Assembly (NCBI RefSeq): GCF_004010195.1
Contig: NC_057735.1
Span: 33,398,064 to 33,462,063 of the forward strand
DNA from: Chiloscyllium plagiosum
Lineage: Eukaryota
Length of the DNA: 64,000 bases
Direction: 5' to 3'
Both the position numbers and the translations under genes were made by a program. Shown piece by piece: positions 6,784-63,687 of the stretch (positions within the stretch are counted from its first letter, which is position 1; each line of letters begins with the position of its first letter). The notes below the pieces were generated by a model. The model made no database searches. It worked only from the letters and a program-made list of their open reading frames with translations, and was not told the DNA's origin.

Positions 6784-6811
6784 GATGTTTCGGGCCGGAG
6801 TCCTTCATCAG
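6784..6811 (-). ncRNA. Minimal type-I hammerhead ribozyme motif (family A) in PLE terminus
   Basis: Minus strand reads CUGAUGA-A-GGAC-UCCG-GCCC-GAAAC-AUC; one stem II mismatch. Confidence 0.7.
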
Positions 6812-6900
6812 TAATGAGGCTGAGAGCCTCAGGGGTGGAGAGATAATTGGGAGGAGAGGTGGGACTGCGGAGAAGGTAGTTAAGAGTGCAATAGGTGGAT

Positions 6901-7792
6901 GGAGATGGGGTTAAAGGTGATAGGTCAGAGGAGAGGGTGGAGCGGATAGGTGGGAAGAGAAATTGTCAGGTGGGACAGATCATGAGAACAGTGCTGAGCT
7001 GGAAGGTTGGAACTGGGATAAGGTGGGGGAAGGGGAAATGAGGAAACTGGTGAAGTCCACTTTGATGCCTTGGGGTTGAAGTGTCCAGAGGTGAAAGATA
7101 AGGCGTTCTTCCTCCAGGTATTGGGTGGTGAGGCAGTGGTGATGGACGAGGCCCAGGACCTGCTTGTCCTTGGCAAAGTGGAAGGAGGAGTTGAAATGTT
7201 CGGCCACAGGGCATTGGGGTTGATTGACGCGTGTCTCCCGGAGATGTTCTCTATGGCTTTCTGTGAGGAGGCATCTAATCTCCCCAATGTAGAGGAGACT
7301 GCATTTGGAGCAATGGATACAATAAATCACATATGGAAGTGCAGGTGGAGGTGGGGTTAAAGGTGATAGGTCAGAGGAGAGGGTGGAGCGGATAGGTGGG
7401 AAGGGAAATTGTCAGGTGGGACAGATCATGAGGACGGTGCTGAGCTGGAAGGTTGGAACTGGGATAAGGTGGGGGGAGGGGAAATGAGGAAACTGGTGGA
7501 GTCCACTTTGATGCCTTGGGGTTGAAGTGTCCAGAGGTGAAAGATAAGGCGTTCTTCCTCCAGGTATTGGGTGGTGAGGCAGTGGCGATGGACGAGGCCC
7601 AGGACCTGCTTGTCCTTGGCAAAGTGGGAGGAGGAGTTGAAATGTTCGGCCACAGGGCATTGGGGTTGATTGACACGTGTGTCCCGGAGATGTTCTCTAT
7701 GGCTTTCTGTGAGGAGGCATCTAATCTCCCCAATGTTGAGGAGACTGCATTTGGAGCAATGGATACAATAAATCACATATGGAAGTGCAGGT
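6901..7792. repeat. 446-bp direct tandem duplication inside the PLE (6901-7346 / 7347-7792)
   Basis: Duplicate ORF sets offset by exactly 446 nt; about 11 substitutions counted by eye. Confidence 0.95.
7426..7776 (-). pseudogene. PLE GIY-YIG endonuclease fragment (second copy at 6980-7330)
   Basis: IYCIHCSKC..LNIGE..R..EH; VAEHFNS; EERLIFHLWTLQPQGI. Confidence 0.88.
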
Positions 7793-8232
7793 GAAACTTT
7801 GATGGATGTGGAAGGCTCCTTTGGGGCCTTGGATGGAGGTGAGGGGGGAGGTATGGGCGCAGGTTTTTCAATTCCTGTGATGGCAGGGGAAGGTGCCAGG
7901 ATGGGAGGGTGGCTTGTTAGGCGGCGTGGACCTGACTAGGAAGTCGCCGAGAGGATGGTCTTTGCAGAAAGTGGATAGAGAAGGGGAGGGAAATGTATCC
8001 CTGTAGGTGGTGGAACTGTTGACGGATGATGCGCTTTATGCGGATGTTGGTGGGGTGGAAGGTGAGGACCAAGGGGGTTCTGTCCTTGTTGCAGTGGAGG
8101 GGTGAGATTCAAGAGCGGAGATGCATTGGAGGGCATCTTCAACCACGTGGGAGGGGAAATTTTGATCTTTAAAGAAGGGGGCCATCTGTGGTGGAACTGG
8201 TCCTAGGAGCAGATGCGGCGGAGGAGGAGCAG

Positions 8233-8649
8233 TTAGGAATAGGGTGGGTGGAAGGTGGTGTAATCCAGGTAAATGTGAGAGTCGGTGGGTTTGTAAAAAA
8301 TGTCAGTGTTGAGTTGGTCCTCGTGGATGGAGAGGTCGAGGAAGGAGAGGGAGGTGTCAAAGGTGGTCCAGATGAATTTGAGGTTGGGGTGGAAGGTGTT
8401 TGTGAAATTGATGAACTGTTTGACATCCTTGTGGGAGCACGAGGTGGCGCCGATGCAGTCATCAACGTAGCGGAGGAAGAGGTGGGGAGTGGTGCCGGTG
8501 TTACTCCAAAAGATGCGCTGTCCTATGTAGCCAACAAAGAGACAGGCACAGCTGGGGCCCATGTGGTTGCCCGTGGCTACCCCTTTCATTTGGACGAAGG
8601 GCGATGATTCGAAGGAGAAATTGTTAAGGGTGAGGACCAGTTCAGCCAA
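8233..8649 (-). pseudogene. PLE reverse transcriptase fragment
   Basis: LTLNNFSF..Q.KGVATG..MGPS.A.LF...RYVDD...SFLDL; frameshifts on both sides. Confidence 0.92.
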
Positions 8650-9144
8650 ACAAATAAGAGTGTCAGTGGAAGGGTACTGGTGGGGACGTTGGGAGAGGAA
8701 GAAATGAAGGGCTTGGAGGCCCTGGTCATGGTGGATGGAGGTTTAAAGGGACTGGATGTCCATGGTGAAGATGAGACATTGGAGGCCGGAGAAATGGAAG
8801 TCTTGGAGAGGAGGTGGAGGGCGTGGGTGGTGTCCTGAACATATGTGGGGAGTTCCTGGACTGGGGGGATAGGACAGTATCGAGGTAGGTGGAGATGAGT
8901 CCAGTGGGGCAGGAGCAGGCTGAGATGATAGGTCGGCCAGGATGGTCAGGCTTGTGGATCTTGGATAGAAGCTCACTTTCTCCCTGCAAGACATCTCATA
9001 CAACTTTGGAACCAACGAAGTAATTTTTGAAGTGGACTCTTGGTTGTATGTATGAAACTGTACTGCCAACCTGCAAGCCACAAACTCTCTCAAACAGCAA
9101 TGTGATAATTTCAGATAATCTGCTTTTTTCACTTGAATAAAGAT

Positions 9145-9280
9145 AAAATGCTGCAGATGCTGAAAATCTGAAACAAACCCAGAGAATACCAGAATGACTC
9201 AGTAGGACTGGCAGCATCTGTGGAGAGAGCAACAGAGTTGTTTTAAGTTGTTTTGAATCCAGTACAACTGTTTTTCAGCA
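9145..9280 (-). mobile_element. Decayed PLE terminal fragment (family C type)
   Basis: gcagatgctgaaaatctgaaac...ggcagcatctgtggagagag matches the termini of the 25574-27838 element. Confidence 0.6.
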
Positions 9281-9392
9281 TCTGTTTTGGTGACGTTGGT
9301 TTAGGGACAAATATCTGTTGAGTTTAACTCTGCTGTTCCCCTTTTGAAATAACGCAGACTCCACTGGGAGGTAGAATAATAGTCTATCCTCA

Positions 9393-9971: not shown

Positions 9972-10078
9972 AAACGTTCAATAATTGACATGATTTGGAG
10001 ATGCTGGTGTTGGACTGGGGTGTACAAAGTTAAAAATCACACAACACCAGGTTATAGTCCAACAGGTTTAATTGGAAG

Positions 10079-10113
10079 CACTAGCTTTCGAAGCGTCACA
10101 CCTTCATCAGGTG
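10079..10113 (-). ncRNA. Minimal hammerhead ribozyme motif (family B)
   Basis: CAC-CUGAUGA-A-GGUGU-GAC-GCUUC-GAAA-GCUA-GUG; stem I CAC/GUG intact, stem II decayed. Confidence 0.7.
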
Positions 10114-10128
10114 GTTGTGTCCTTCAAC

Positions 10129-10163
10129 CAACTGATGAAGGAGCGGCGCTCCGAAAGCTCGTG
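10129..10163 (+). ncRNA. Minimal hammerhead ribozyme motif (family B)
   Basis: CUGAUGA-A-GGAGC-GGC-GCUCC-GAAA-GCUC-GUG; perfect 5-bp stem II; palindromic AGCU stem III. Confidence 0.8.
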
Positions 10164-10254
10164 TGCTTCCAATTAAATCTGTTGGACTTTAAACTGGTGT
10201 TGGGTGATTTTTAACTTCAATAATTGAGACCTGCATTTTTGGATTTTAAACAAA

Positions 10255-10780: not shown

Positions 10781-11719
10781 ACAGCCAGATTAATGTAATT
10801 CTTTTAATTAATCCACTATTAATTTCGACTCCCTTTCAAAGGTGCTGACCATGAGCTGATAGAGGAACTGTGCAACTGAATTCTAAAGCCTATTGTTGCT
10901 GTATAAGCTTTGTAGATTTATCTTGAATGGCAAATCACTTTTTAAAAAGCGAATACAGAATTTAGTAATTCTCATTAGTGGTTGTTTAAAAATAGTCAGT
11001 TTGGATTGCAGCAGCAGGGCAGCTGTTGTACAACAAAATTTAATTATATAATGCTTTTTGGAATCACTTGCTATTTTATGTTAAATCAGTTGAGTTTCAG
11101 TGAAAGCCAGTTGTTCTGCCATATCTGTATGGTGCTGATCCTTCATTAAAACTTTCTATTCTAGTCCCATTTCACATCCTTTCAAAGAATATATGTATTA
11201 TTTCCCTTCAAGTATTTAAATTTCTCTCAAATGACATGATTGATGAGCTTCAATGCCCATTTTCATTTCATATCCAACATGGTGTGTGAAACTATTAGAT
11301 GGTCCTCACCATTTAAGCACTTGGGAAAATTGACTGATATAAATCCACCAAAGCATTTAATATTTAGTTTTCAAAATATTCTCTTGTATCACCTTTCCGA
11401 TCATCTTGAATATAATTGTAGCTTTCAATTTTCATAACCATATCAACTGATTCCTGGTATTATTCCAATGAATAAATATTGCACCTCTTCTATCTGTAGG
11501 AAAAAAATGTTGGAGCTATAGATGTTAATTCTGCATACCGAATGTCATTCACAGATTCATCAAGCCTGTAGTTTTATTGTCTCCATTTATCAAGGATTAG
11601 GGATAGGTTAAGGGACAGTCGATGATTAAATTAAGGGAATGGGATTCTTAAAGTTTGTGCAGTGTCTCTTCATTGTTTGTAGTGATGAATTTGGGATGGA
11701 TTGGGACCAAAATACAGAG

Positions 11720-11851
11720 GGCGAAAGTGGGTACTGCAGATCCTGGAGATTTGAGTCAAGATTAGAGTAGTGCTGGAAAAGCACAGCAGGCCAGGCAGCA
11801 TCTGAGGAGCAGGAAAATTGATGTTCCGGGCCAAAGCCCTTCATCAGGAAT
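11720..11851 (-). mobile_element. Solo PLE terminus (family A) with TSD
   Basis: TSD caaaatRcagag at 11708-11719 and 11852-11863; hammerhead CUGAUGA-A-GGGC-UUUG-GCCC-GGAA (core mutated). Confidence 0.88.
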
Positions 11852-13138
11852 CAAAATGCAGAGACTCCAATAAATCAATTTTAACTACCAGTCACACCAT
11901 TACCATTTCCCAGTATTATTCATACAAATGAGCAACTAAAATAGAGAGATGGACATTCCAACCATGTCTGACTGATCGCAATTTTAATCTTCAGGAAGCA
12001 AGGACATCTGCCTAAGGATTACTTCGTTCATTTTAATGATTTGTTATTGCTGAAGGAAGAGAGAGTTAGCTTCATGTGGAGCACAGAGCATAAATTGAAT
12101 TTTTATTTTAAGCAGTGACTTAAGCTTCTTTACCACAATACACTTGTTTTTTTTCCACCAAAAGGCAAGGTACATGTGAGAGCAAAATCATTGAGGTACT
12201 TACTTTTCCCAAGGAACTCATTAGGAAACCAACAGAGCTGAATCTGAGCGATGCTTTAGAATTCTTGTGCATTGTCCCCAGTCATTTTATCTGTCTGGCC
12301 ACACTGGCGGAGTAATAAAAATTAATCAATTGAAGCAAGTAAGAGAGAGGATTTCAAGCTTATTTATGAATATGCAAAGCATTTTAGACATTGATAATGA
12401 TAAAAGAGGTATCTCTCATGTTTCCATCTCTTAAAATGTCAGGGAAGCAATTGTAATTGTTTTGCACTGAACACACAAGTCCACTTGATATTTATATGTA
12501 TTCCTTCCAACACCGATGGGAGCAGGTTTTGGTATATTGTTTGATCTTGAACTGAATATTTTAGGGTAAAAGGCAACAGAAGAAAGATAATCTAATTCTA
12601 ATGATGTCCAAAAGATAACTATCAAACAAATGATGTGTAACAGAAGCCTAAAAATTGCTTTTTGATACAAAGGCAATTTATCAGAATCCTCAGTGGTTCC
12701 AACAATCTTATCTCAGGCCTGTCCAACAAGAAGATAAAAACAACAGTCCAAATGATTAAACTGCTTCTGAAGACTGAATAGATTTTAGTCAGTCAGGTTT
12801 GTGAAAGCCTCCCAAGTGAATGAAGTTGAGAATTCCAATCACTAGATACTTAGTTGGTGTCCAGTGATTTACCTGCCTCTCATTTACATGTTTTTTGGAA
12901 GTCCATGTAGCCTGGATAAGCAGATGATCAAAGCTTTGGCCTTTGAACGCGGAGTTGACACTCACCTCTGATCATAGTGAAGTGTTGGTTCCCTCACGGA
13001 TCCTTCTGATAGCCATTTGGGAGTCAGGCTAACAATCTGTCCCCATAAAAAAGGTCCTTTTTTTGAGAAATAGAGAATAATCTGCTGGATGTAAAAGCAC
13101 TGGTTTCCAAGTGCTGCAAGGCATGGATGAGAAAGAAG

Positions 13139-13712
13139 GTAAAAACAAGGAATGCAGATGCTGGAAACCAGATTCTGCATTAGAGTGGTGCTGAAAAAGC
13201 ACAGCAGTTCAGGCAGCATCCGAGGAGCAGGAAAATCAACATTTTGGGCAAAAGCCCTTCATCTGGAATAGAGGCAGAGTGCCTGAAGGGTGGAGAGATA
13301 AATGAGAGGGGGGGGGGGGGGGGGAGAAAGTAGCATAGAGTACAGTAGGTGAGTGGGGGTGAGGATGAAGTTGATAGGTCAGGGAGGAAGCAAAGAGTAC
13401 AATGGGGTGGGATGAAGGTGATAGGTCAGAGAGGAGGGTGGAGTGGATAGGTAGAAAGGAAGATAGGTAGGTAGGACAAGTCATGGGGACAGTGCTGAGC
13501 TGGAAGTTTGGAACAGGGGTGAGGTGGGGGAAAGGGAAATGAGGAAACTGGTGAAGTCCACACTGATGCCCTGGGGTTGAAGTGTTCTGAGGCGGAAGAT
13601 GAGGCGTTCTTCCAGGCGTCTGGTGGTGAGGGAGTGGCGGTGAAGGAGGCCCAGGACCTCCATGTCCTCGGCTGAGTGGGAAGGGGAGTTGAAATGTTTG
13701 GCCACAGGGCAG
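13139..13712 (-). mobile_element. Penelope-like element 3' fragment
   Basis: AKHFNSPSHSAEDMEVLGL...EERLIFRLRTLQPQGI; 15-bp TSD tggatgagaaagaag at 13124-13138 and 13713-13727. Confidence 0.93.
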
Positions 13713-14307
13713 TGGATGAGAAAGAAGAAGCTCTGTGAAAGCTGCCCTTGTCCTCCCCGCTCTTCGCCCCTCTTCCCCCATCACTGAAAATCTATCGGAA
13801 CTGGACTTATGTACACATTCTCCCTTTTTTCCCCTATCTGTCTGCTTTTGATATCCTGTAGCTGCCAACATCTAATCTTTCAACGTCTGTGAACTATGTG
13901 ACTCAGTCATCAAACATTCCGTGCTGAACTGACTAGTGAGATACTTCATTTTAAATTCCCATCATCTTGTTTTAACTTTTCAGCGCATCTAGAGGTCAGC
14001 AGTTTATATACTGATGCAGACTCTGCTGTGTAATACTTGGGCAAAATCACACTTATTCAAGCATATGCATGGGTGACTCTTCCATGAATCGAATAGTGAT
14101 TTAATCAGCATTCAAAGAAGTTAATGGTTAGTAATGATGTGGGTGAGCTTTAAAGAGCCTCTGAATGTGAACGACACCGTTTTCATTAAAACATTTTTTC
14201 AGTGTTTCAAGATTTTGTGGAGCCTTAATATTTTAGATCCAGAATATTCCTGTGTAAGTTTTCAATTATTGGCGAAAATTGGCTGTGCCAGTACATTGCT
14301 GATGAAG

Positions 14308-14432
14308 TTCCTGATGAAGGGTTTTTGCCTGAAACATATAATTTTCCTGCTCCTCGGATGCTGCCTGACCTGCTGTGCTTTTCCAGCACCCATTCTAATC
14401 TTGACTCTAATCTGCAGTCCTCACTTTCATCC
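14308..14432 (+). mobile_element. Solo PLE terminus (family A) with intact hammerhead core
   Basis: CUGAUGA-A-GGGU-UUUU-GCCU-GAAAC-AUA at 14311-14338, then cctgctcctcggatgctgcctgacctg...ctcactttc. Confidence 0.85.
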
Positions 14433-24480: not shown

Positions 24481-25635
24481 TCCAACTCCACCATCTTTCC
24501 CCCCCCCCCCCCCCCCCCACCCCAATACATATTTCTTTGTTATCTCCTTTTAAGTCTTCATCCTTTAAATGAAAATTTGGGATTATGTGTACCTACTTTA
24601 TGTATAAATGGAACTTGATTGTTTGCTTCTGTTGTTATGTGGTTGTAAATCCTGAAAATCTTGTCCAAACTATGGAATTGAGTCACAATTTTTAAATTAT
24701 TTCCCATTTACCAAGCTGGTTTTGACTTCAGTTACTATTTCTGTGAAGGTGCTCTTAAATTTTCATTGAATCCATATTAATAATTGAAAAAAAAACCTTA
24801 ATACATCTTGGAGCAAAATGATTTTGAAACTCTCATGAACAGGATTCCTAAATTGTTCACCATTTGATCAATGGCATCCTTCAGCCTTAACATTTTTCAA
24901 GTTCCAAGTCCAGATTAGAAGGAACATTTGGTTTGCCTGGTTTCCGTCAAGACATACAAATTGTGAAACAGCAGATTCTTGATCTTTTAGCTTCAAAGTT
25001 GTGGTTCAAGCTGGTACAATGGAACATTTCTCTTTGTCCTGAAGGTAAACACGAGAGATGAGTGACAGTTGCTGGCTTTATCAGACATGCTGCAACCTGT
25101 GAACAAGTATAAAAATGTTAAACGTGTTAAAATTGTTTTTCAGATAATTTGATTGAACAATGTAATGGGTACTTACATTGTGACATAGGGAAATGATGGA
25201 AACATTGGTGCTTCAGTGACCAGGAAGTATAACCTGAACACCAGTTGAATACAACTTTTAGTTGTTCAGGCAAACCAAGAGGACTCCACATTTGTTCAAT
25301 TAGCTTTTTACTTTCCTGGAAAACTTTACAAACGTGAGTCAATGAACAATGTTTTCTTTCAAGCAGTAAACACAAAACACGTTCTGTATTAGAAATGAAT
25401 GATTAATGAGTTTCTTTTCACATTGCCATTTTTTTAAAGGCAGGTCTGTAAATGTTTTTATTTTGTCCTTGTTTTCTGTCGTATTTTGACTTGAGATGGG
25501 ATCAGTGGGGGTCCTGAAAGGGAATGCAGCATTCAAATCCATCAGGAATTTAAGTGCAGCAGTTACACAGAAACAAAAACAGAAACTGTTGGAAAAACTC
25601 AGCAGGTTTGGCAGCATCTGTGAAGAGAAATCAGA

Positions 25636-25671
25636 GTTAACGTGTTGAGTCTAATGACCCTTCTTCAGAAC
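25636..25671 (-). ncRNA. Minimal hammerhead motif (family C), GAAA box mutated
   Basis: GUU-CUGAAGA-A-GGGUC-AUUA-GACUC-AACAC-GUU-AAC; stem I GUU/AAC. Confidence 0.6.
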
Positions 25672-26059
25672 TGATGGGAGCTAGGGATGTGTTGGTTTTA
25701 ATGCAGGAGATAGAGGGAGGGAAGGGGTAAAAATTAAACAATAGGTGGAGATAGAGTCCATATGGAGAGAAAAGCAGATGGACAGATAAATATCAGATAA
25801 CAATCAGCCTCGTAGAATGAATAGCGGCTAATGGGGACTCTTAGTGGCTGACAATGTGTATAATAGCAGACCCTGTGGTAACAAGGTGTAATGAGTGGGT
25901 GTGGGGGAAAGCATGGGGAAGGTGCTTAAGGCTCAAAATTGTTGAACTTGATATTGAATTCAGAAAGCTGTAGAGTTCCAAAGCAGAAAATTAGGTGCTG
26001 TTCTTTCAGGTTGCACTGAGCTTCACTGGACCACTACAGCAAGCCTGATGCAGAGATGT

Positions 26060-27325: not shown

Positions 27326-28077
27326 AGAAACAGGGAGACAGGGTATCCAGAGAAACAGGGTGGTGTGTCAAAGTGGCAGGCAATGAGAAGTTCAGGCTCC
27401 TTTTTTGCGGGCAGAGTGTAAGTATTCTGCAAAGTAGTCACCCAGTCTACACTTCATTTCCGCAGTGTAGAGGAGACGACATTGTGAGTAGTAAATGCAG
27501 TAGGCTAGATTGAGTGAAGTGCAGGTAAAGTGCTGCTTCAACTGGAAGGTGTGTTTGGGGCCTTAGATACTGAGGAGGGAAGAAGTAAAGTACCCTACTG
27601 CATTTTTCTCTCTGTTTGGGCTTGATCTCCACCTATTGTTTTCTCCTTACTCTCTCCCCCCAACCTTCTCTTCTGCATAAAACCCAACAATTTCCTCGTT
27701 TCCATTAATTTCGAAGTAGGGTCACTAGACTTAAAACATTGACTCTGATTTGTCTCCACAGATGCTGCCAGACCTTCTGAGATTTTCCAGCAATTTCTGT
27801 TTTTTTTTTTCTGATTTCCAATATCTGCAGTTCTTATGTAATTGCACAGAAATCCTATTTTAAAATATTCTCAATTTTTGAATTGGCTTTTTCATCATCC
27901 TTGATCCTAACAGCACCTGATAAATTCTGTTCTAAATGCTTCCACTGTTTTTTATTCAGTTTATAAATGGAGCTCAATTAAATGTAAGATGATGTTTTCC
28001 AAAGCAAACTGCAAAATTATCCCAGTCCATACATTGTTAAGGCCTAATAATTGCAGCTTGAGTCTTCTGTAGACTTG

Positions 28078-28206
28078 GCCAAAATGAGGACTGCTGATGC
28101 TGGAGATCAGAGTCAAGATTGGAGTGGTGCTGGAAAAGCACAGCAGGTCAGGCAGCATCCTGAATGAGCATTCCTGATGAAGGGCTTTTGCCCGAAACAT
28201 CAATAT
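28078..28206. mobile_element. Short inverted PLE-terminus insertion (family A)
   Basis: Perfect 13-bp TSD ttctgtagacttg at 28065-28077 and 28207-28219; left part is the antisense terminus, right part a sense hammerhead. Confidence 0.9.
28170..28205 (+). ncRNA. Minimal type-I hammerhead ribozyme motif (family A)
   Basis: AUUC-CUGAUGA-A-GGGC-UUUU-GCCC-GAAAC-AUC; intact core boxes, perfect stem II. Confidence 0.8.
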
Positions 28207-29287
28207 TTCTGTAGACTTGCTTTACATCGTGACTAGTTTGAAATACAGGAGATTCTAGTTCTATTGACTGCTTCTCTGATTTTATCATGAATAAATTAGC
28301 AATGTCAAAATTGAAATTAATGTGTTTGGGAAAATGTACTCAAAGATGATGGAGATTTAAAGGATCATTTGCAGTGCGCATTGGAATATCAGAAAATCGT
28401 GTTTGACAAATGTGAGAAAAATAGACCCAATCCTTTGCTTATATTCCCTCCCTGATTAGCACTGGACTTGGGTTTTTTCTATGACTTTCCTAGTATTTGC
28501 AGTTGATTGTGTTTGATGGCAGTGTAACCAGGTAGCTACATGCAAATAAACCGCAAAGTTCTTTGCACCAGGATTTCTTCTTGCAATAGAAGACCACTGT
28601 CAGACCACATCCATAAAAACTTGGTAGTGCTGCTAACACGTTATCAGAAGTTAACAAGTGTGCTAGGTCTTTAGTTTTTTGATTGAAAATGGATATATCT
28701 GTTTCAGTGGTTGTTGTTGAATGATGCTAGTTTACACACTGGCTAGTTAATACCGTACCAAGTCATTATGATGGACCACATTTGGAGGCAGACAGTGGTA
28801 AGAACCCAAAAGCTCCCTTTATGGCTATCTCGAGTTCTCCCGAGCCACTGACAACTGTTTCCCTGCCACAGCAAATGAACCACCCACCCTCATTCTCCAC
28901 ATCCTGACAACATTCAAGAGAATCCTCACAGTCAATACAACAGCTTGCAATCGTCCAAACCATAATTATTTATGCTGACACACAGTTTCTTCGCTCCTCC
29001 ACCTATTGCTTAGTTTTGTGGTGTTCAGTGAGACTGATTATACTTTCTGCCCAACTTGGCTGACAGCGAATTCTATCTAAAGGCCTTGTGGAAACTCTGT
29101 CTTTTATAGTTGAGCCGTAACCCAAATGTAAGTATGCAGTTCAGGATTTGAACCTCTTTGGACAACAGTTAAACAGTTTTCAATGATAATGCCTTTTTTA
29201 TTTGCTTGTGGATTTTTCTCTTTGTTGCACTCTTCAATAATGGACCTAGTGATCTTCAGAAAAGGGAAGATCTTAAAAGTAAAAGCG

Positions 29288-31779: not shown

Positions 31780-32345
31780 ATTTTATTTACTGTGAGCATG
31801 TTACAGATTTTGTGAGCGTGTCACAGGTTTACATTAGTGACTAATGGACCTACTCAATAATTGGATCGTGTCAAATAAAATGTCCCTTCGGCCATTGGCA
31901 ATAGCAAAGTACTGGCCATACACACGCAGTACATGCAAAACTCAGAACAGACATTAGACGCGTTTCCGTGTTTGAACAATTCTAACTGTACTAAGAAGTT
32001 TACGAATAACTATTTTAAGATTATTAGACAAGCTCGCAATGTGGCTCAATTATACTTGTGAGTAGCTACATATACTCAAAAACAAGAGCCTGACCTCATC
32101 AAGAAAAAATGGTTCATATACAGACATTGCATTTTTTTTAAATTAAGCAAAAGCTTAGAGTATAATTGTTGCATGGCGCATTCTCCATGACAATATCTCA
32201 TCCATTTGGAGTTGCTCTGTCACAGGATCAGCACCCCCTTCTCAATATAAACCATTGCTTCCTTCGAACCAGGGCATTCTTGCATCACCCTGATGAGCAC
32301 AGGACAGAAATCTTTGACAGCATGTTTCATTTTTCAGCAACACTT
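31780..32345 (+). mobile_element. Old Penelope-like element 3' end (family D) with hammerhead relic
   Basis: LDRVK*NVPSAIG and LNNSNCTKKFTNNYFKIIRQARNVAQLYL*VATYTQKQEPDL match a PLE GIY-YIG C-terminus; CUGAUGA...GAAA at 32290-32310. Confidence 0.7.
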
Positions 32346-39589: not shown

Positions 39590-40440
39590 ATTGTAAATTC
39601 TGAGGAGGATCATGTAAACCCTACAAAAGGACACTTACAAGTTGGTGGAATGGGCAGGTAAGTGGTAAGCAAACTCCAATGCAGAGAAGTGTGGCATGAT
39701 AATGTTTCAGTGAAAAGAACATGGATGCAGCACAAAATAAAGGATGCGATCCTAAAGGGTGTGCTGGATCTGTATGTGCAGAAGTCTCTACACGTGGTAA
39801 TTCATGGTAGAGTGAACAGATAATAAAGCATATAGTATCCTAGACTTTATTAGTAGGAGAACATGGGACAAGAGCAAGTAGTTGGTACTGAACTTATATA
39901 AGAAGGGGCGGCACGATGGCACAGTGGTTAGCACTGCTGCCTCACAGCGCCAGAGACCTGGGTTCAATTCCCGCTTCAGGCAACTGTCTGTGTGGAATTT
40001 GCACATTCTCCCCGTGTCTGCGTGGGTTTCCTCCAGGATGGTCCGGTTTCCTCCCACAGTCCAAAAGTGTGCAGGTTAGGTGAACTGGCCATGCTAAATT
40101 ACCCGTAATGTTAGGTGAAGGGGTAAATGTAAGGGAATGAGTCTGGGTGGATTGCACTTCGGCAGGTCGGTGTAGACTTGTTGGGCCGAAGGGCCTGTTT
40201 CCACACTAAGTAATCTAAGATACTAATTCATCCTCATCTGTAGTATTGTGTACAGTGCTTAACACCACACATTAGGAAAGATGTGAATGCATGGAGAGAG
40301 TGCAGAAGAGGTTTGTGAGAATTAATCCAGGGGGAGGAGGAGAGGATCTAATAGAAATTTTCAAAAGCTTGAGGCACTGGGCCAGAGTAGATAGGGAGAA
40401 ACTGTTCCCACTCGTAACAGGATTGAGAATGAGTGGGAGC
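39590..40440 (+). mobile_element. CR1 LINE fragment interrupted by HE1
   Basis: aagttggtggaatgggcag..aatgcagagaagtgtg; MERVQKRFVR..DLIEIFK..RVDREKLFPL. Confidence 0.8.
39905..40218 (+). mobile_element. HE1 SINE (young)
   Basis: ggggcggcacgatggcacagtggttagc through taatcta. Confidence 0.93.
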
Positions 40441-43449: not shown

Positions 43450-44130
43450 CGTGTGACTCTTTGACTAGTAAAAATCCAAATGTACTGTCCTCTTTTAGAA
43501 CAGAAAACTTGATCTTGAAATAATTCTTCTCTCTCAGCAGTCACATCTCTGCTTCCTCAATATTCAGGTCTCAGGGTTTCAGAATCTGTGTCCAGAGAGA
43601 TGAGTTGCTCCTCTTTTTTATAATAAGGTGAGAATGCTAACATTTCACTTTCCTCTGATTGGATTTCCTGTTATTCGCTTCTCGTCCACTTTCTTCAGGG
43701 TTCGACTCTTGCATCCATAGATTGCAACATTCAATACTCATGACAATACTGGACATTTTTCAGTCTCATCCTGATGCTTTTGGACTCTCAGACAGTACTT
43801 ACATCGCGAGTCATGCCTTTTGTCAAGGCTAACGTAAGAGAAAGTGAGGACTGCAGATGCTGGAGACCAGAGTTGAAAAATGTGGTGCTGGAAAAACACA
43901 GCAGGCCAGGCAGCATCCCAGGCGCAGGAGAATCGACGTTCCGGGCAGATTCCTGAAGAAGGGCTTATGCCCAAAATGTCGATTCTCCTGCTCCTCAGAT
44001 GCTGCCTGGCCTGCTGTGTTTTCCAGCACCACATTTTTCATCTCAAGGCTAATGTAATCTGGATTCATTCGTGGATGCACAACAGCTATTATCAACTAAA
44101 GAGGTTTTCTTTTTATCCTTCTAATACTGA
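43450..44130 (-). mobile_element. RTE-clade LINE RT C-terminal remnant
   Basis: After removing the 43838-44042 insertion: IQITLALTKGMTRDVSTV*ESKSIRMRLK and VAIYGCKSRTLKKVDEKRI, matching RTE YGCESWTLKK.D.RRI. Confidence 0.7.
43838..44042. mobile_element. Inverted-repeat mini-PLE (family A)
   Basis: Inverted arms plus one-sided tail; 15-bp TSD tcaaggctaaYgtaa at 43823-43837 and 44043-44057; CUGAAGA-A-GGGC-UUAU-GCCC at 43953. Confidence 0.92.
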
Positions 44131-45801
44131 ATGACTCATCTAAATATAAATAGTAGGTTACTACTTTATAAATCTGCAAAAAAAATCAAATTTCATTCCA
44201 TTTTTAAATATAGTGAATTATTTGGGGGAATTATTATGTAGCTATACTCTCCATTTATTTTGGACAAAGTATTCATCTGAATCATTCATCTAAAAAATTA
44301 ATCTTGAAAAGAGGGTTCCATAATGTATTTGCTAACATGTAGGTAGATGATGGGCTCTGTGGGCTCGAGGCAAACAGAAATTACTCGTGACAAGTGAGCA
44401 GTTACTTGTATGAAAACATGAATAAAATAAAGAAAGGAGTTACGTATTGAATAACATATATTGCTGAGAGTTTTATGTACAATATAATTGCTAAATGGCA
44501 CACAGCAAAACAACTGAAATATTGTGATGAACTGTTGAGTGAAGCAGCTTTTGAACCTTCTTAAAGCTCTCTTGATCTTGTTACTACCTTTAAATCTTTT
44601 CAGTTTTGCTTCTGTCAAATTGAGCACCCTATATCACCTCCAACATTTGAAAGACTGACTTTATGAATTTGTCCTCCAAGGTAAGGTTCTTATCTGGTCT
44701 GGTGACACCTGTGTAGAGGAGTAGGAGTTCGGATTTCAGATTGATGAGTTTTAAAGATTACCAACCTGAAATGTTGACACTGTTTCTCTTCAGCATTTTC
44801 TGTTTTTATTTCAGATTTCTCAATTCCACAGTATTTTGGTTTTCTATTATCATTGTCAGATTTCAAATTGGATAGTCTATGAGTTAGAATATATTTTAAT
44901 CAAACAGGATCTATGTTGTAATTAAGGTCATTAATAATGGGTACAATTTTTTGTTACCTGGAAATGGCTAGGAAGGTTGCAAGAAGCCAAGTAATTGGGC
45001 GAGTTTCATCTACATAGATACTCAGTCCCTTTTTGCCTCCTCATCAATCATATGCTGGTCAAGAAGGTCCACTGGGGACCTTCTTGACTCATCAGCAATT
45101 AAGAACCTTAAATGTTCAATTAACAGCTACTTAAGACTTTGACTCACCACTGGTCAGATTATCTGTCACCCTAGCAAATAAGAAAAGTGGCTGACTCTGG
45201 GAAACTTCAGTGACCTGTCGGCCAACTTTATGGTGGGATACCATTTACCCCAAATTGGGATCATTCAGGTGAAGGAATGAGGATCCAATGGAGTTGCCAC
45301 TGAAAATGACCCTGATGCTGTCACCTTCAACCCCTCAATCCTCCTGTACCCCAGCCCTGACTGTGCATGACCCCAAAGAGAGAAGTCTTATCATTGATTG
45401 CCTTGAAGATTAGTCCTCTCATGACAATCTTAAGGACCCAGAAACTGCTGCCCTCTGATTTGCCAGTAGCTCTGACGAAACGGGTCTTCCAATGTTGAGC
45501 CCTATGATTCACAATGAAATTTGTCAGATATCATTTTGTGTAATTCTTAAGGGTTGTCATTATGGTGTTCCTTTAGGTGTTTGACACTTCTGTCTATAGT
45601 GAGAAAAACTCCCCATGCTTTAGTTGCAAAATAACACTTCTTTATGTTGTCCCATCCACTAAGCCAATCTTTCATACCCAGTTAGTATTTCAGTGGGACT
45701 TTACTATGTCATACTTAGTTCTTGGGTACATCTGCATCTGTTAGCATCCTACTCAACCGTTGCTATGTAAAATTCCCGCCATACCTGGTCTATCTCAGGG
45801 A

Positions 45802-46015
45802 GGAGAAAGTGAGGTCTGCAGATGCTGGAGATCAAAGTTGAAACTTTATTGCTGGAACAGCACAGCAGGTCAGGCAGCATCCAGGGAACAGGAGATTCGA
45901 CGTTTCGGGCACAGGCCCTTCTTCCTGGAAGAAGGGCCTGTGCCCGAAACGTCGAATCTCCTGTTCCCTGGATGCTGCCTGACCTGCTGTGCTGTTCCAG
46001 CAATAAAGTTTCAAC
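45802..46015. mobile_element. Perfect palindromic mini-PLE (family A)
   Basis: Arms 45837-45925 and 45927-46015 (89 nt, no mismatch seen, 1-nt loop); 35-nt tail; 12-bp TSD ctatctcaggga at 45790-45801 and 46016-46027. Confidence 0.96.
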
Positions 46016-48464
46016 CTATCTCAGGGATAAGTGTTTTCATTAATCTGATGGCATTGTTTGAACTATTATTACCATGATCTTACACTTGAAGTTAAAGCCT
46101 AGGTGGAATGCCTAATCTATTAAATTAGGAATTTTGTCAGATTTGACGTTAACTTACTTTAGTTCCAACATCCACAGTGCCACCCTGCCCTCCCAAAATC
46201 CCTTCGCAAATTCCATCAATCCCACACAAATAACACAGCTATAATTATGTTATCCTAGTAAACTCTTGATGTAAGGTTAATCACTTTATAATACAGCACT
46301 TCCTTGGCAAATCATAGGTAATTCACATAGTGTTATGCAGACATTAAAAATTGTGTTAGAAGTGGCATGTCAGTGGGTGTGGTTTTACACTTTAGCAATG
46401 TCAGTGCAAATTATCTTACCAGGGTCTAATATTAACACCTTTGTGTTGCTCGTGGAACAAGAGATTTGTCACAACAAGAACTTTAAACAAATTTAAATCT
46501 ACTTTGAATAACATTTTCTACCTTCATTTATAAGTGGATCAGAATTGTCGCTTTGTCCATATACCATTGAAGATTACTACTGCTTGATTTTATGTTAATG
46601 CCATAGAAAGATAAAGAAAGATATTAGCAGATAAAATAGATGTATACATATACTCCTCGACATACAGAATGCAGGTTGAGATAAAACTTGTAGATGGAGC
46701 TTTGAAATATAGATTTTTTTTTCAAAATATGAATTACGTTGAGCAAAGGCAAAATGCTGTGGACATTGGAAATCTGAAATTGTGGAAAATCTTACCCGGT
46801 AGCATCTGTAGAGAAAGAAATAGAATGAATATTTTAGATCTGTGACCTTTCAATATTTTATTTTTCACTTTCTATAGTTTAAATTTTAATCCAATGTACA
46901 TATGCTTAACTTTCACTGAGCAAGTAATTCAGATTCCCCTTAAACTTTAAACTTTAAACCAAAGAAAGCCAAAACAAGACTGTAATTCCATGGTAGCAAA
47001 ACTAAAGGACTTTACTTTCTCTTTCTTTCACTGTAATGTTGATATGTTCTCCTCGGGTTCGTTGCTGAAAGGCAGATCTAGCCCATGTTGCTTCAACCTT
47101 CGTAATGGGTGGGAAAGAAGGCAGATCCTGAATCCAACCAAACACAAATAGGAATCGAAGCACATGTTGTCAGCAACGTGATCCATGCTGGCCATCCAGT
47201 GGCCTCCCACCGAATCTGTTTTGTTGTAGGAACAAACATTTTTTCATGCACACTGTAGCTTGGAGCTATGGATAGTGATGGCAAAGGCTTTAATGTCTTT
47301 CCATCATATAGCTGACCAGGACTTTTTCTGTTCCTTGCCGCCTGCCATTGGCATATATTCAAATATTGGAAGAAGCAGTCTTTTTGGCTGCATGATGAAA
47401 GTACCTAAATTGGCCATGGATTTCTGGAGTGGGACTTGGAGCCTGAACTTCTTGTTCTACCCACTCCACCGTAAGATTTCCAAGATGTCAGATAATTAAT
47501 TGTGAAATAGATGCAAAAGCCTTTGCCTTAAAGCCTTCAGTTAGCTGTAGAAAGTTAATAAATTGTGTAAACATTTTCAGCCCATTTAAGAGCCTTTAAA
47601 TCCGAAAACTCTCTTTGCAGCATCAGCAAACATTTTCCTTTAGATTTATTCAACCATCAATGCAATATTAAGTTCATTATAAGCTCAAATTACAAGGGCA
47701 ATCACTACAGCACTTTTAAAAATACATTGTGTAAGTACTTGCATCCTTGTACTGAAGTGACAATGTATATTCTACAGGTAATGAAACACAATTCATGACT
47801 TTACCTGATTATTTATTTGCCGTTTGCAATAAATTATCTGATCCAGATATTCAAAGCTAGTTGTAGTCCTGAGGATTGATTCTGAAAAGCCTTAATAATT
47901 AAATACTACAGAAGTCATTACATTGCAATACAATCTAATCTAATGCAATCATTCTGTAAAAAAGACTTCTTGTAATAAGTTATTTCAGAAAATATAATAG
48001 GTTCAATCAACATGAACTTGAATTGCATCTTCTTTATTAATAGCATATTTCCCTTGTCAAAGCCACTTTATAGTGGAAAATGGATTTGAGGAAATCAGTG
48101 AGGAAATCTCTTAAAAAAAAGCAAAGGAGTTTTATATCTTTTGTGAGTCAATTTTATCCAGTTTTCTCCTGTGGTTACAATTATTAATGGAATTGGGCCA
48201 GAGTGAATCTTTAGCTTCTCAAGAGCTTGTTAAAGGTTGATTTTGCCTGGCAATAACCATTGGCCTAAGTCTTCTGAGGAACAGCAGTCACTGTTGGATT
48301 GCTACCTTGACCCTGCATTTTTGTGTCTTAGCCAATCTCCACATGTTTGTCTTACACTGTCAGCATCTTCAAAAATGTGGAGTATATCTGAAATCAGGCT
48401 GCTTCTATGTAGCACTGGTTTGTGAGGAGAAGTGCGATGGCAAAGTCCTACTTTGGAAATAGAA

Positions 48465-48835
48465 CCAGTCTAAGTCAAGCTTGGAATACAGACAGACTCT
48501 AACCTCACACCTTTAATGCATTGTCTGAACTGAGATTCACCATTTTTTTATAAAACTTTAAGTTATCTTAGGAATGTGACTTGAAAGAAGTTCTGGGATT
48601 TATATATTAATGAATTGAAACCTGCAATTTATTCTAAAAGATGAAAGACTTAACAGCAATCTAGGTTTGTTCAATATATCATTTCAGTTGCATGACACAA
48701 TGATCTTGTGCTATAAGTTCTGTGTCGTATGATCTTGCCCCACTAGCTACCTGACAAAGGAGCAGTGCTCCAAAAGTTAGTACTTCCAAATAAACCTGTT
48801 GGACCATAACCTGGCATGTGATTTTTAACTTTGTC
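48465..48835 (+). mobile_element. PLE 3' terminal fragment (family B), decayed hammerhead
   Basis: UAC-CUGACAA-A-GGAGC-AGU-GCUCC-AAAA-GUUA-GUA, then cttccaaataaacctgttggac as in the 9989-10217 element. Confidence 0.8.
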
Positions 48836-49568
48836 AAGAGAAGACAAGCCATGCCTGTATTTTACAGCATTAACTGTTGCATTTTGATAGATTTTAGTGT
48901 GTTAGTGAACACCGATGTGAAATTTAAGCTGTTTTTCTGGGTGCTAGTGAATGAGCGATTGGGTGGATTCGGTGGATGGTATTTGAGGTTGACAATCAGA
49001 TTGAGATGAGCTGTCAGGTCAGTGATAGTCAGGTTGGGTCAAGTAGGCAAGTTGGGCAGCCATGTTTGGAGGAGGCTTGGGTGGGGGAGGAGGGGCTACT
49101 GAAGGAGGGGAATGGGAGTCTGGGAGATCAGTTGTATAGTTATGCAGGAGTCAGGCTAGAACTTTTCCATCTGATCAGTAACTATCCAGGTGTGAGTTAG
49201 AACTGTCCAGTCTCTAGATGGCCCAGGGAGTAAGGGAGTTGCTTATTTCTAAGCCAATTTCCAAGGGGTAAAAATGTCTCTTTGGATTTAGTCCCATATC
49301 TTGAGTCATATGTCCAGTCCCTAACTATCCCATAGACTGGAAGAACTAAACTTGTCTGTCAACATCAGTTACAGAAGGAAGCAAAGTATTTTCCAGTGGT
49401 GAAGATGAAGTGACACCTCTTATGTTTTGCAAATTTATCAAGTTTTGGTCCAGTTATTAAGTAATGTCACACTAAGGATTGACTTAATAGAGACTGAATA
49501 CCTAATGTGTATTGAATGAAGATAATGCTTTTATTAAATATGTGAAGAAGTCTTGTTTAAAAAATATA

Positions 49569-60551: not shown

Positions 60552-60640
60552 TGAAATGCCCATCAGCCATGATTGAATGGCGGAGTGGACTCGATGGGCT
60601 GAATGGCCTTACTTCCACTCCTATGTCTTATGGTCTTATC
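60552..60640 (+). mobile_element. CR1 LINE extreme 3' end
   Basis: atcagccatgattgaatggcggagtggactcgatgggctgaatggcc..cctatgtcttatggtcttat. Confidence 0.85.
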
Positions 60641-61133
60641 TCCAATTGTGAAATGTCTCAACTAATTGCTCCATGTTTACTTTGCTAATGAGATGGAAGA
60701 TGCCAGTCCTTGACAATCCCTTGAAATTATAGTCTTTGCATTTTGCAGGCTGTCTCGGATCACAATGGGGTTTGGAATCTGAAATGTGCAGAAGTGCAAA
60801 TTCTATCATCACCTTAGCTGTGATTTCAAATTATTGTAACGTATTGTAAAAGAGTCTCTTTGTAAAAATCCAATTCATAGTCCACTCAGTGAACTAAAAT
60901 CATTATTGCTCTTAAGCACATCTTCATCGGAGGGACAAAACTGTGTTCCTTAAAAAAAAATGCAACGCGTTTATGATTGGAAACAGCATACTGTATAATA
61001 AGTGGAAGTCTCCAATGTTCCTGAAAACATATTGGGGATATTAGGTTGTAAACTCTTATGCTTAAAAATGTTCATTTATTCCAAGATGAAAAACAGAGAT
61101 GGGTTCACAGGGGAAATTAGCACTTTTATATGG

Positions 61134-61254
61134 GATGAGAGTGTGGTGCTGGAAAAACACAGCAGGTCAGGCATCATCCTGCTCCTTGGATGTTATTTTC
61201 CAGCACCACACACTTGACTCTGATCTCCAGCATCTGCAGTCCTTACTTTCTCTT
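61134..61254. mobile_element. Internally deleted inverted mini-PLE (family A, hammerhead absent)
   Basis: gtgtggtgctggaaaa / ttttccagcaccacac arms, tail on the right, TSD ttttatatgg at 61124-61133 and 61255-61264. Confidence 0.85.
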
Positions 61255-62949
61255 TTTTATATGGATATAAGGCCCATGTGATTCACAATGCTGTTGAAAT
61301 GATTTTTGAGAGGGGAAGGATACTTGAGGTATCCCTGATAACTCCTGTACACAGTTTGTCAGCCAAATGCTGAATATTTCTGTGGTTCACCATGGAAAAC
61401 TGCACATACTGAGATGTCATAATGAGGTTCGAAGATTTGCCTGGTGATAACAAGTGGAAGAAATCTGGAAAATTTCCATCATGAAAGAAAGCGCTAGAGT
61501 TTAAAAAAAAAAATCAAGCTGGGAAAGGAAATGATCATATTTAATCCCTGGAGTACTAAGAATCATTTTGGACTGATTCTGGGAAAATTGAAAATCAACT
61601 TCAAGGAAAATATAAAGCATACCTTCAAGATTTTTTTTTGATCTGTTGAAATTAAGAAGGGAAAAGTTCTGTTCTGTGGTTTGATGTAAAGCAGCCTTCA
61701 AAAATAATGTTTAATCAATAGTTCGTTCAGTTTGGTGTTACAGTAAAATCTTTGAAACATAAAACTTTGTTGTGTTGTCCTTTCAACCATGAACTGGAAA
61801 TTCATGATTCATTCTTTTTAAAAGCATTCAATCTCTATGAGGATGGTCACAATCAAGAAATCTTTTGTGCTTAACAAGATCAGAAAGCAATTTCAGAACT
61901 AAGGCAATCACAAGGATGATTGAAATTGCTCAGACATTTGCATTGTTCCACCAATTTAAGTGCATTACTTTCAGGTTGATGGAAATTGGGTGCTGAAAGA
62001 ACAGCAGTTAGGTGCTGAAAGTATAGTTGATATAAGTTGACATGAGGAATGTCTGACAAGAGCATAATTACAAATTCACTATCTATTTAAAAATGCAGCC
62101 ATATGTTCCTGCTCACTTACTGGATATCAGCATTATTGTCCAATTCGGAGTGTGACAAATAGTATTGAGAATATATTGTGCAGGTTTGATATTGGGCTGT
62201 GCTGAATAGTGTTGTCTAACAAACAAATAGTAATTAATAAGTTGCTTGACTGATTAAGTCAGTGTGCATTGCATGTGAAACTCATTTTACAGATGCATAA
62301 TATGTAGACAAATTGTAGTTACACTCTTTAAATACTGTCCTTTGGATCAACACCAAAGAACACTGATCATTGTTTTTATAAACAAGGATTAGGTTGTTAA
62401 TTCATTCGTGGGATGTGAGCATCATTGACAAGGCCAGCATTTGTAGTCTTTTCCTACTAATTGATGAGAAGTGGTCATGAGCTGCTTACTTGAACTACTG
62501 CAGTCCTTGTGATATAAGCATATTCACAATGTTGATAGTGCTGGGAGTTCAAGGATTTAGTCTCAGAAGCAATAAAGGAGTAGCAATGTATTTCCAAGCC
62601 AGGACGGTGTGTTAGGCATGAATATTTAAAAAAATCAATTTCACAAAAGAATATTCTTTAATGTTCTGTCATTTGGTACAATATTGCTTGATACTAGTTG
62701 AGTTCAGTGAATATTGTAACCTAGAAAACACCAAGCACTTACAGCATAATTGATTACATTAGTATGTGTTTTTAGTCCAAAATATCAGTATTGGGAATAT
62801 TCTTGAAATATTTGGGTGGTACGGTGGCTCAGAGCGCCAGAGACCCGGATTCAATTCCAGTCTCTGGCAACTGTCTAGGTGGAGTTTGCACGTTATCCCC
62901 ATGTCAGCATGGATTTCCTTCAGGTGCTCCAATTGCCTCCCACAGTCCA

Positions 62950-63687
62950 GAGTCAGGAGTGTAGTGCTGGAAAAGCATAGCAGGTTAGGCAGCATCCAAG
63001 GAGCAGGAGAATCAATGTTTCAAGCATAAACCCTTCATCAGGAATGAGGCTTGTGAACTGGGGTGCTGAGAGATAAGTGGGACGTGGGTGCGGTTGGGGG
63101 GGGCAGGTAGCTGAGAATGTGATAGGTGGATGAAGGTGAGGGAGAAGGTGATAGGTCGGAGAGAAAGGTGGAGTCAACGGACAGGTCAGGAGGGTGCGGC
63201 TGAGTTGAAGACTTGGGACTGGGATACTGTGGGGGGAGGGGAAATGAGAAAATTGGTGAAATCCACATTGATCCCATGTGGTTGCAGGGTCCCAACACAG
63301 AATATGAGGCGTTCTTCCTCCAGGCATCTGATGATAATGGTTTGGCGATGGAGAAATGAGATTACTTACTTACAGTGTGGAAACAGGCCCTTCGGCCCAA
63401 CAAGTCCACACCGACACTCCGAAGAGCAACACACCCAGACCCATTCCTCTACATTTACCCCTGCACCTAACACTACGGGCAATTTAGCATGGCCAATTCA
63501 CCTAATCTGCACATTTTTGGACTGTGGGAGGAAACCAGAGCACCGGGAGGAAACCCACGCAGACACGGGGAGAGTGTGCAAACTCTACACAGTCAGTCGC
63601 CTGAGGCGGGAATTGAACCCAGGTCTCTGGCTCTGTGAGGCAGCAGTGCTAACCACTGTGCTACCGTGCCAAGAAGGCTCATTTTAT
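62950..63687 (-). mobile_element. PLE 3' fragment (family A) nested in HE1
   Basis: Homologous to 6722-7150; hammerhead CUGAUGA-A-GGGU-UUAU-GCUU-GAAAC at 63014-63041. Confidence 0.88.
63357..63670 (-). mobile_element. HE1 SINE nested in the PLE
   Basis: Full antisense HE1. Confidence 0.93.

What the first reader, a model, noticed from the sequence alone, without database searches (positions are those of the whole stretch)
6784..63041. At least four families of minimal hammerhead-ribozyme motifs, about 15 copies in 64 kb
Seen in sequence: recurring CUGANGA-[stem II]-GAAA-[short palindrome]-UH motifs. Family A has a GGGC-N4-GCCC stem and GAAACGUC consensus (6784, 11820, 13238, 14311, 28174, 34538, 43953, 45925, 63014). 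Family B has GGAGC-N3-GCUCC, GAAAGCUA/C and stem I CAC/GUG (10079, 10132, 48751). Family C has GGGUC-N4-GACUC and stem I GUU/AAC (25636, relic 27710). Family D is a relic (32290). Stem I, II and III sequences differ between families A-C but stay complementary, the stem II loop varies freely, and A-C carry an extra A after CUGANGA. Established: PLE termini carry minimal type-I hammerheads whose palindromic stem III (ACGU/AGCU) favours cleavage as dimers. Inference: sharks carry a large, diversified and poorly annotated ribozyme complement that could cleave host transcripts.
Basis: partly seen in the sequence, partly recalled or inferred. Interest (0 to 1): 0.72.

Follow-up and report, generated by a model that had tools for sequence, protein, structure and literature searches.

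The report
Shark Penelope hammerhead stubs, mostly decayed
The self-cutting-RNA motifs are real but are the already described end-signature of Penelope-type jumping genes, most copies here are broken, and the short ones are likely copies of the capped front end of the jumping gene's RNA rather than a host RNA-cutting system.

Summary
All 15 sites are real repeat copies, but 0 of the 14 family A-C copies keeps every hammerhead feature; 6 keep both core boxes. Families A and B (C on thinner evidence) are the 3' pseudo-LTR ends of Neptune-type Penelope-like elements (PLEs), the minimal hammerheads of Cervera and De la Pena 2014. Exact cores: 21,180 (A), 12,186 (B), 829 (C) genome-wide. After insertion the core decays as fast as the flanking tail (3.8% vs 3.6% per non-CpG site) and catalytic G12 is lost like any CpG, so there is no sign of host selection. 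Short copies start 4-8 nt before the core, about 30 nt below a TATA-like box, in family B with an extra G (64 of 78): likely reverse transcripts of the uncleaved, capped 5' end of PLE RNA. Family D is not a mere relic: it is an old repeat whose consensus fits a hammerhead with a 1-2-bp stem II braced by a predicted 7-bp pseudoknot; its PLE link is not shown. No cleavage was shown. This scan reported the same readings before on other DNA of this and other genomes.

The parts
6687..8962 (-). Decayed Neptune-type PLE (family A): RT 8962-8200, Cys linker 7993-7781, GIY-YIG 7815-7510 duplicated at 7330-7064 by a 446-bp tandem duplication, 3' UTR, hammerhead, tail
   Evidence: tblastn with P0014 (RVT_1 + GIY-YIG); tandem repeat; blastn
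6784..6811 (-). Family A hammerhead at the PLE 3' end; core boxes kept, stem II, palindrome and stem I damaged
9166..9248 (-).
   Evidence: nhmmer
9977..10229 (.). Family B head-to-head insertion, cores at 10110(-) and 10132(+), flanked by a 12-14-bp target-site duplication; 10132 is the most intact core in the window
11716..11854 (-). Short family A copy starting 4-5 nt before the core (11847); A13 mutated
13161..13715 (-). 5'-truncated family A PLE: GIY-YIG remnant 13708-13562, UTR, broken core at 13265, tail
14308..14428 (+). Short family A copy starting just before the core (14311); palindrome and stem I broken
25566..25760 (-). Family C PLE 3' end (UTR, broken core at 25668, tail)
27395..27813 (.). 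GIY-YIG remnant 27589-27395(-) and inverted family C arm 27600-27813(+) with relic core at 27710; with 25566-25760 likely one PLE insertion with an inverted 5' arm, interrupted by LINE-like sequence
   Evidence: (I9)
28064..28219 (.). Family A inverted insertion (tail arm -, core 28174 +) with 13-14-bp target-site duplication
32185..32345 (+). Family D repeat: CCAAT-box region, TATA at 32246, leader at 32276, core at 32290; consensus fits a hammerhead with 1-2-bp stem II and predicted leader-loop II pseudoknot; this copy is decayed
34428..34590 (-). Short family A copy, broken core, 10-13-bp target-site duplication
43823..44057 (.). Family A head-to-head insertion (core 43953 +, G12 lost) with 15-bp target-site duplication
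45789..46027 (.). Family A head-to-head insertion, 89-nt perfect inverted arms that meet inside the first core box (both cores truncated), 12-13-bp target-site duplication
   Evidence: (I19)
48660..48840 (+). Family B 3' end with TATA at 48712 and broken core at 48751 (G8 and G12 lost)
61124..61264 (.).
62945..63383 (-). 5'-truncated family A PLE: GIY-YIG remnant 63383-63198, UTR, core at 63041 (boxes kept, weak stem II, palindrome broken), tail

Best explanation
Families A-C are minimal type I hammerhead motifs in the pseudo-LTRs of Neptune-type Penelope-like retrotransposons, and the many short copies are likely dead-on-arrival reverse transcripts of the uncleaved, capped 5' end of the element's RNA that then decay neutrally. 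Shown: linkage of A and B to RT/GIY-YIG, two tail end points about 35-40 nt apart, target-site duplications, frequent inverted arms, a sharp 5' boundary just before the core, a TATA-like box about 30 nt above it, an extra G at the family B boundary, and CpG-driven decay. Inferred: transcription starts 4-8 nt before the core; the PLE protein starts reverse transcription inside the tail and, on the 5'-most repeat, runs off the capped end after 90-135 nt, often switching strand to give a head-to-head pair; the ribozyme serves the element (slow, dimer- or protein-assisted removal of the capped first 32-37 nt), not the host. Family D is likely an older element of the same kind with a pseudoknot-braced hammerhead.
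For: Family A core lies downstream on the same strand in 16 of 20 loci picked by RT (one is the window itself, several have N gaps); family B in 19 of 20 loci picked by GIY-YIG, 596-1259 nt downstream; family C in 1 of 20 C loci plus the window. CX4CxxC linker before GIY-YIG in A relatives and B copies, the Neptune/Nematis mark in PMC8557442. Bimodal 3' ends: A 81 at +45-59 and 100 at +80-99 of 213; B 23 and 24 of 58, as the PLE tail of PMC11167929. Tail-anchored 5' ends in 1.42 Mb (140 loci fixed without regard to repeats, plus the window): 104 of 201 A and 33 of 56 B copies end at -15..+4 from C3, only 4 and 1 at -16..-59; only 3 of 43 non-inverted A cases share upstream sequence with another copy, so this is not a missing-subfamily artefact. 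TATAAA at -35..-40 in 37 of 47 long B copies; TTATCT at -34..-37 in 66 of 73 long A copies. G before the B boundary in 64 of 78 truncated junctions (7 A, 7 T), counted by eye in the first 100 of 2,995 matches. Non-CpG core 3.8% vs tail 3.6% deviation (Fisher p=0.90), CpG sites 17%, G12 not protected (14 of 106, p=0.26). The same -4 boundary appears as loose ends in reads and contigs of related species.
Against: No transcription start was mapped: the RNA run showed no place where many molecules begin or end. The extra G is not seen in family A (G at -5 in 9 of 63 solo copies, A in 10), and in B many G's can also be read as the last base of the inverted arm. D. virilis Penelope is reported to have a TATA-less internal promoter with an intron after the start (PMC2377424), so the upstream-TATA model differs from the best-studied PLE. 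PMC3846280 explains head-to-head junctions by self-priming on an antisense template. No RT or GIY-YIG was found beside family D in 20 loci of +-1.5 kb. Cleavage was not tested.
Confidence: 0.8

Rival explanations
1. The copies form a host-used ribozyme complement that cuts shark transcripts in a regulated way.
For: About a fifth of A and B copies keep all five features (47 of 212, 10 of 56), roughly 140,000 by extrapolation; copies are transcribed passively on both strands in a related species.
Against: Core decays like the tail and G12 like other CpGs; 0 of 14 window copies intact; reads span the cut site with no pile-up of ends; head-to-head arms put the two cores on opposite strands, so one transcript carries a hairpin and a single core, not a dimer; published activity of such motifs is low or needs the PLE protein (PMC4209133, PMC11167929).
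Confidence: 0.05
2. The short copies are self-propagating non-autonomous elements (SINE- or retrozyme-like) with their own internal promoter, mobilised by PLE proteins.
For: Very high copy number, fixed ends and own target-site duplications; internal promoter reported for D. virilis Penelope; non-autonomous PLE derivatives are described in vertebrates (bioRxiv 2026.07.22.740005). Family D copies often keep their TATA region.
Against: Short A and B copies lack the upstream TATA region; inverted junctions differ from copy to copy; no tandem arrays of the short unit in the window.
Confidence: 0.1
3. The fixed 5' boundary reflects reverse-transcriptase stalling or strand switching at the hammerhead hairpin, or self-priming on an antisense template, not a transcription start.
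For: 61 of 104 A and 23 of 33 B boundary copies have an inverted arm directly upstream; a shoulder of ends reaches +12 inside the core; PMC3846280 proposes antisense self-priming.
Against: Stalling on a sense template would leave ends at the 3' side of the hairpin, not 4-8 nt beyond its 5' side; it does not explain the TATA spacing in B, C and D or the extra G in non-inverted B copies.
Confidence: 0.12

Closest known systems
Minimal hammerheads (min-HHR) in pseudo-LTRs of metazoan PLEs (Cervera and De la Pena 2014, PMC4209133; read parts 1-2 of 4, one supplement searched, one not readable)
   Same: Type I, extra nucleotide between 9 and 10.1, G10.1-C11.1 pair, palindromic 15.2-16.2, short stem I, several consensus families per genome, mostly single truncated copies, some opposite-strand pairs
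   Different: No shark in the text or the readable supplement; they count about 4,000-9,000 in coelacanth and Xenopus against at least 34,000 exact cores here; stem II is 4-5 bp here; no start-site or cap analysis in the parts read
Neptune clade of EN+ PLEs (Craig et al. 2021, PMC8557442; passages)
   Same: RT followed by CX2-5CxxC linker and C-terminal GIY-YIG, 5' truncation, inverted 5' copies, optional 30-40-bp tail
   Different: No tree was built; Nematis shares the linker; no insertion bias to microsatellites was tested
PAc Poseidon element of Anolis (Frangieh et al. 2024, PMC11167929; read parts 1-2 of 4)
   Same: Two reverse-transcription start sites giving the tail; uncleaved RNA is the main template; no RNA-seq ends at the cut site
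   Different: Poseidon clade; ORF starts inside the ribozyme; the run-off at the capped end is my inference, not shown there
Pseudoknot-braced hammerheads with 1-2-bp stem II (Perreault et al. 2011, PMC3088659; passages) - for family D
   Same: Very short stem II whose partner helix ties it to stem I
   Different: Their one-pair example is a metagenomic type II; D is a type I in a vertebrate repeat with a palindromic stem III; activity and covariation not shown here. Lunse et al. 2017 (PMC5785218) could not be read and may hold similar forms
Non-LTR retrozymes (Cervera and De la Pena 2020, PMC7229834, passages; Li et al. bioRxiv 10.64898/2026.07.22.740005, part 1 of 5 and passages, supplements closed)
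   Same: Type I hammerheads in non-coding PLE-related repeats; one chondrichthyan genome is positive in the preprint
   Different: Retrozymes are head-to-tail tandem arrays; the copies here are dispersed singles or head-to-head pairs

Membership tests
PLE minimal type I hammerhead (min-HHR), families A-C | CUGANGA and GAAA..UH boxes around stem II in the family consensus | tested here: met
   21,180, 12,186 and 829 exact cores, controls 0; window copies mostly broken
PLE minimal type I hammerhead (min-HHR), families A-C | Extra nucleotide between 9 and 10.1, G10.1-C11.1, palindromic 15.2-16.2 | tested here: met
   A in 103 of 106 A and 33 of 34 B copies; ACGU and AGCU palindromes
PLE minimal type I hammerhead (min-HHR), families A-C | Location in the pseudo-LTR of an RT + GIY-YIG element | tested here: met
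   A 16 of 20, B 19 of 20 loci; C 1 of 20 loci plus window
PLE minimal type I hammerhead (min-HHR), families A-C | Self-cleavage as dimer or with protein help | not testable with these tools
   Cofolding of three intact genomic copies did not give the catalytic dimer as minimum-energy structure; RNA reads show no ends at the site
Neptune clade EN+ PLE | CX2-5CxxC linker between RT and C-terminal GIY-YIG | tested here: met
   CHGGRCKTC in B copies; CHHRN-KTC with a stop in the window A copy and CKRTRCKTC in relative P0014
Neptune clade EN+ PLE | RT phylogeny with reference Neptune sequences | not tested
   No named reference set was fetched
EN+ PLE | Optional 30-40-bp tail, inverted 5' copies, target-site duplications | tested here: met
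Non-LTR retrozyme | Head-to-tail tandem array of hammerhead-bearing units | tested here: not met
   No such array in the window; 96 of 201 A and 34 of 56 B copies have an inverted arm instead
Rfam hammerhead families | Covariance-model match | tested here: not met
   No hammerhead family at E<=1 in the window or at E<=10 in 20 loci
PLE hammerhead, family D | Linkage to RT or GIY-YIG | tested here: inconclusive
   None in cis in 20 loci of +-1.5 kb; one hit belongs to a family A element on the other strand
Pseudoknot-braced hammerhead, family D | Leader-loop II helix supported by compensatory changes | tested here: inconclusive
   Consensus leader and loop are complementary over 7 nt although both were free in the pattern; mean 6.1 of 7 pairs vs 4.6 at a control register in 10 of 20 loci scored; no clear compensatory subfamily seen

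The most novel reading that the evidence does not exclude
In shark Neptune-type PLEs the hammerhead is the very first structure of a TATA-driven capped RNA, so the ribozyme is a self-decapping switch; hundreds of thousands of genomic stubs are strong-stop-like copies of that uncut leader and map both the transcription start and the reverse-transcription start sites, and family D is a vertebrate hammerhead whose stem II is reduced to one pair and braced by a 7-bp pseudoknot with the RNA's first nucleotides.
Probability: 0.5. Interest if true: 0.52.

Novelty: new member of a known kind. Interest (0 to 1): 0.3.

Why it matters
The ribozyme class and its place in PLEs are published. What adds value is scale (an estimated 0.7-0.8 million A-C ends in 3.56 Gb, invisible to Rfam) and the fossil record in the short copies: if their 5' edge is the capped start, the open question of what PLE hammerheads do becomes testable, since cleavage would remove the cap and the first 32-37 nt and would decide between translation and use as template. 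It would also offer an origin for PLE head-to-head inversions. Family D offers a natural compact hammerhead variant to assay.

Tried and rejected
Rfam scans: no hammerhead hit. Pfam on window PLE fragments: 0 of 9 hit; identity came from intact relatives. Host exons: 0 of 150 non-repeat ORFs (of 341 of at least 45 aa) hit Pfam, so whether the window is intronic is unknown. Genomic footprint of cleavage in family A: only 8 of 201 tail-anchored copies start within 2 nt of the cut. Genome-wide junction counts were 587 at the cut, 98 at -2 and 712 at +2, but by eye about 60 of the first 100 at the cut are microhomology deletions, inverted-arm joins or single-base insertions, and about half at +2 are T-run slippage: inconclusive. 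Cap G in family A: not enriched. No RNA holder listed for the query stretch; run X22 laid 0 reads. A splice-acceptor reading of the A/C tail (branch-point-like motif and pyrimidine run before CAG) got no support from listed read joints. Target-site duplications were not found for 6 of 12 window insertions searched. Lunse et al. 2017 is not held. 'Not in print' rests on searches only; subscription papers, Repbase and Dfam were not searchable.
Full report
Observation. All 15 coordinates hold family-related sequence. A relaxed type I descriptor finds 6 sites against a mean of 0.15 in 100 resampled windows. In the 3.56-Gb genome, exact core patterns match 21,180 times for A, 12,186 for B, 829 for C and 194 or 329 for two D patterns; reversed controls give 0. 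The window copies are decayed: 6 of 14 A-C copies keep both core boxes and none keeps boxes, stem II, palindrome and stem I together. In 140 loci fixed without regard to repeats plus the window (1.42 Mb), tail-anchored search gave 213 A, 58 B and 52 C hits (some C hits are A copies), about 0.7-0.8 million by extrapolation; 47 of 212 A, 10 of 56 B and 0 of 52 C keep all five features. Rfam sees none of them.

What the motifs belong to. The window holds a broken element at 6687-8962 on the minus strand with RT, a Cys linker and GIY-YIG, ending in the 6811 core. Its RT fragment has 48,819 first-look candidates in the genome. Longer copies hit Pfam RVT_1, and the closest named proteins are from Chiloscyllium punctatum (90-93%), Stegostoma and Mobula, which supports a shark host. 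A family A core follows the RT on the same strand in 16 of 20 loci. A family B core follows a different GIY-YIG in 19 of 20 loci. Family C follows a third GIY-YIG in 1 of 20 loci and in the window, and shares its tail with A. The CX4CxxC linker points to the Neptune clade (PMC8557442, passages); no tree was made. The 3' ends fall at two points 35-40 nt apart, the PLE tail that PMC11167929 (parts 1-2 of 4) ties to two internal reverse-transcription starts. Six of 12 window insertions searched have 10-15-bp target-site duplications.

Selection. Among 106 A copies that span the core, non-CpG core positions deviate at 3.8% and invariant tail positions at 3.6% (p=0.90); CpG positions deviate at 17%, and G12, which sits in a CpG, is lost in 14 of 106, like the other CpGs. 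In B, G12 is lost in 7 of 34. Differences between subfamilies fall at N7, loop II and the tail, which fits selection on active elements and none after insertion.

How the short copies likely arise. 5' ends pile up at -15..+4 from C3 in 104 of 201 A and 33 of 56 B copies, with 4 and 1 at -16..-59 and no peak at the cut site (11 A copies bounded by N were dropped). Of these, 61 A and 23 B have an inverted arm directly upstream; only 3 of the 43 other A copies share upstream sequence with another copy. Long copies carry TATAAA at -35..-40 in 37 of 47 B and TTATCT at -34..-37 in 66 of 73 A; two C copies show a TATA-like box at the same distance. That is about 30 nt above the boundary, which in A and C sits on an initiator-like motif (consensus recalled, not from a call). 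At the B boundary a G stands where the element has C in 64 of 78 truncated junctions, counted by eye among the first 100 of 2,995 matches after removing 22 that continue into the UTR; this is the expected mark of copying a cap (recalled knowledge), though many of these G's also fit the inverted arm, and family A does not show it. I infer that transcription starts 4-8 nt before the core, that reverse transcription begun in the tail of the 5'-most repeat runs off the capped end, and that the template was uncleaved, as in PMC11167929. TATA plus initiator-like motifs in pseudo-LTRs were noted in rotifer PLEs (PMC3846280, passages), while D. virilis Penelope has an internal TATA-less promoter (PMC2377424, passages).

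RNA. No indexed holder is on record as RNA. One raw single-cell run of a related species (X21) gave 1,680 reads on an A end and 2,296 on a B end; depth jumps at the -4 boundary, A reads lie on both strands, depth does not drop at the cut site, and no place collects many starts or ends. The library type makes this a weak test. B reads are biased to one strand over UTR and core, which may reflect element transcription.

Family D. It is a real old repeat: 29 BLAST matches at 73-90% including itself, 13 profile hits in 1.42 Mb. Copies show CCAAT boxes, a TATA box 27-31 nt above a leader in 15 of 17 scorable cases, a 5-bp stem I, one G-C pair (possibly two) as stem II, a 7-nt loop complementary to the leader, and a six-base palindrome at stem III. 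The C11.1-G12 CpG is intact in 1 of the first 100 matches. No compensatory subfamily was evident, and no RT or endonuclease lay in cis in 20 loci. Short stems II braced by pseudoknots are known and active elsewhere (PMC3088659, passages).

Rivals. Host-used ribozymes (0.05), self-propagating short elements (0.10) and stalling or antisense self-priming as cause of the boundary (0.12) are weighed above. A genomic footprint of cleavage, reported by earlier notes for other genomes, was not cleanly reproduced for family A here.

Novelty. Hammerheads in PLEs are published; sharks were not found with them in searches except one chondrichthyan in the retrozyme preprint (supplements closed), and Lunse et al. 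2017 and one supplement of PMC4209133 could not be read. This scan holds 527 earlier findings with these words in at least 27 genomes, including the capped-leader and pseudoknot readings on other pieces of this genome; these are unchecked notes and not independent support. Verdict: new member of a known kind, interest 0.30.

Noticed in passing
window 6900-7793: 446-bp tandem duplication (97% identical) of the GIY-YIG and 3' UTR part inside the decayed PLE
   Followed up: partly
window 4313-4652, 33202-33557, 37240-37695, 38360-38684, 39910-40207, 42546-42871, 62825-62952, 63351-63842: Abundant 200-300-nt repeat family in both orientations (D1, D7, D8, D10), likely a tRNA-derived SINE of sharks (name HE1 recalled, not tested)
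   Followed up: no
window 15094-15459, 26088-27453: LINE-like RT fragments (CR1-like by recalled motifs; no Pfam hit), one with a 383-nt N gap, lying between the two family C arms
   Followed up: no
window 508-672 (-): Another weak PLE RT remnant
   Followed up: no
family A and C tails, e.g. window 43990-44030: Branch-point-like motif followed about 20 nt later by a pyrimidine run and CAG; a similar pyrimidine-CAGCA motif ends the family D tail. Could be a splice acceptor or a shared protein-binding site
   Followed up: partly
family D upstream region, window 32180-32250 and L281-L300: RFX-box-like motif (recalled consensus), two CCAAT boxes and TATA: looks like a germ-line Pol II promoter; unlike A-C, most D copies keep it
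   Followed up: partly
G000 matches: 20 of the first 100 listed are family A copies with the whole ribozyme core deleted between two GAT microhomologies
   Followed up: partly
L165:931 region: 124 reads carry poly(A) joined inside the family B tail: polyadenylation or oligo-dT priming there
   Followed up: no
L048, L050, L055: Three family C copies with identical flanks at different places of contig C1: part of a larger duplicated or repeated unit
   Followed up: no
L119, L186, L248: A further C-related subfamily whose first box reads UUGACAA and that forms head-to-head pairs: possibly a core variant or an inactive lineage that still spread
   Followed up: no
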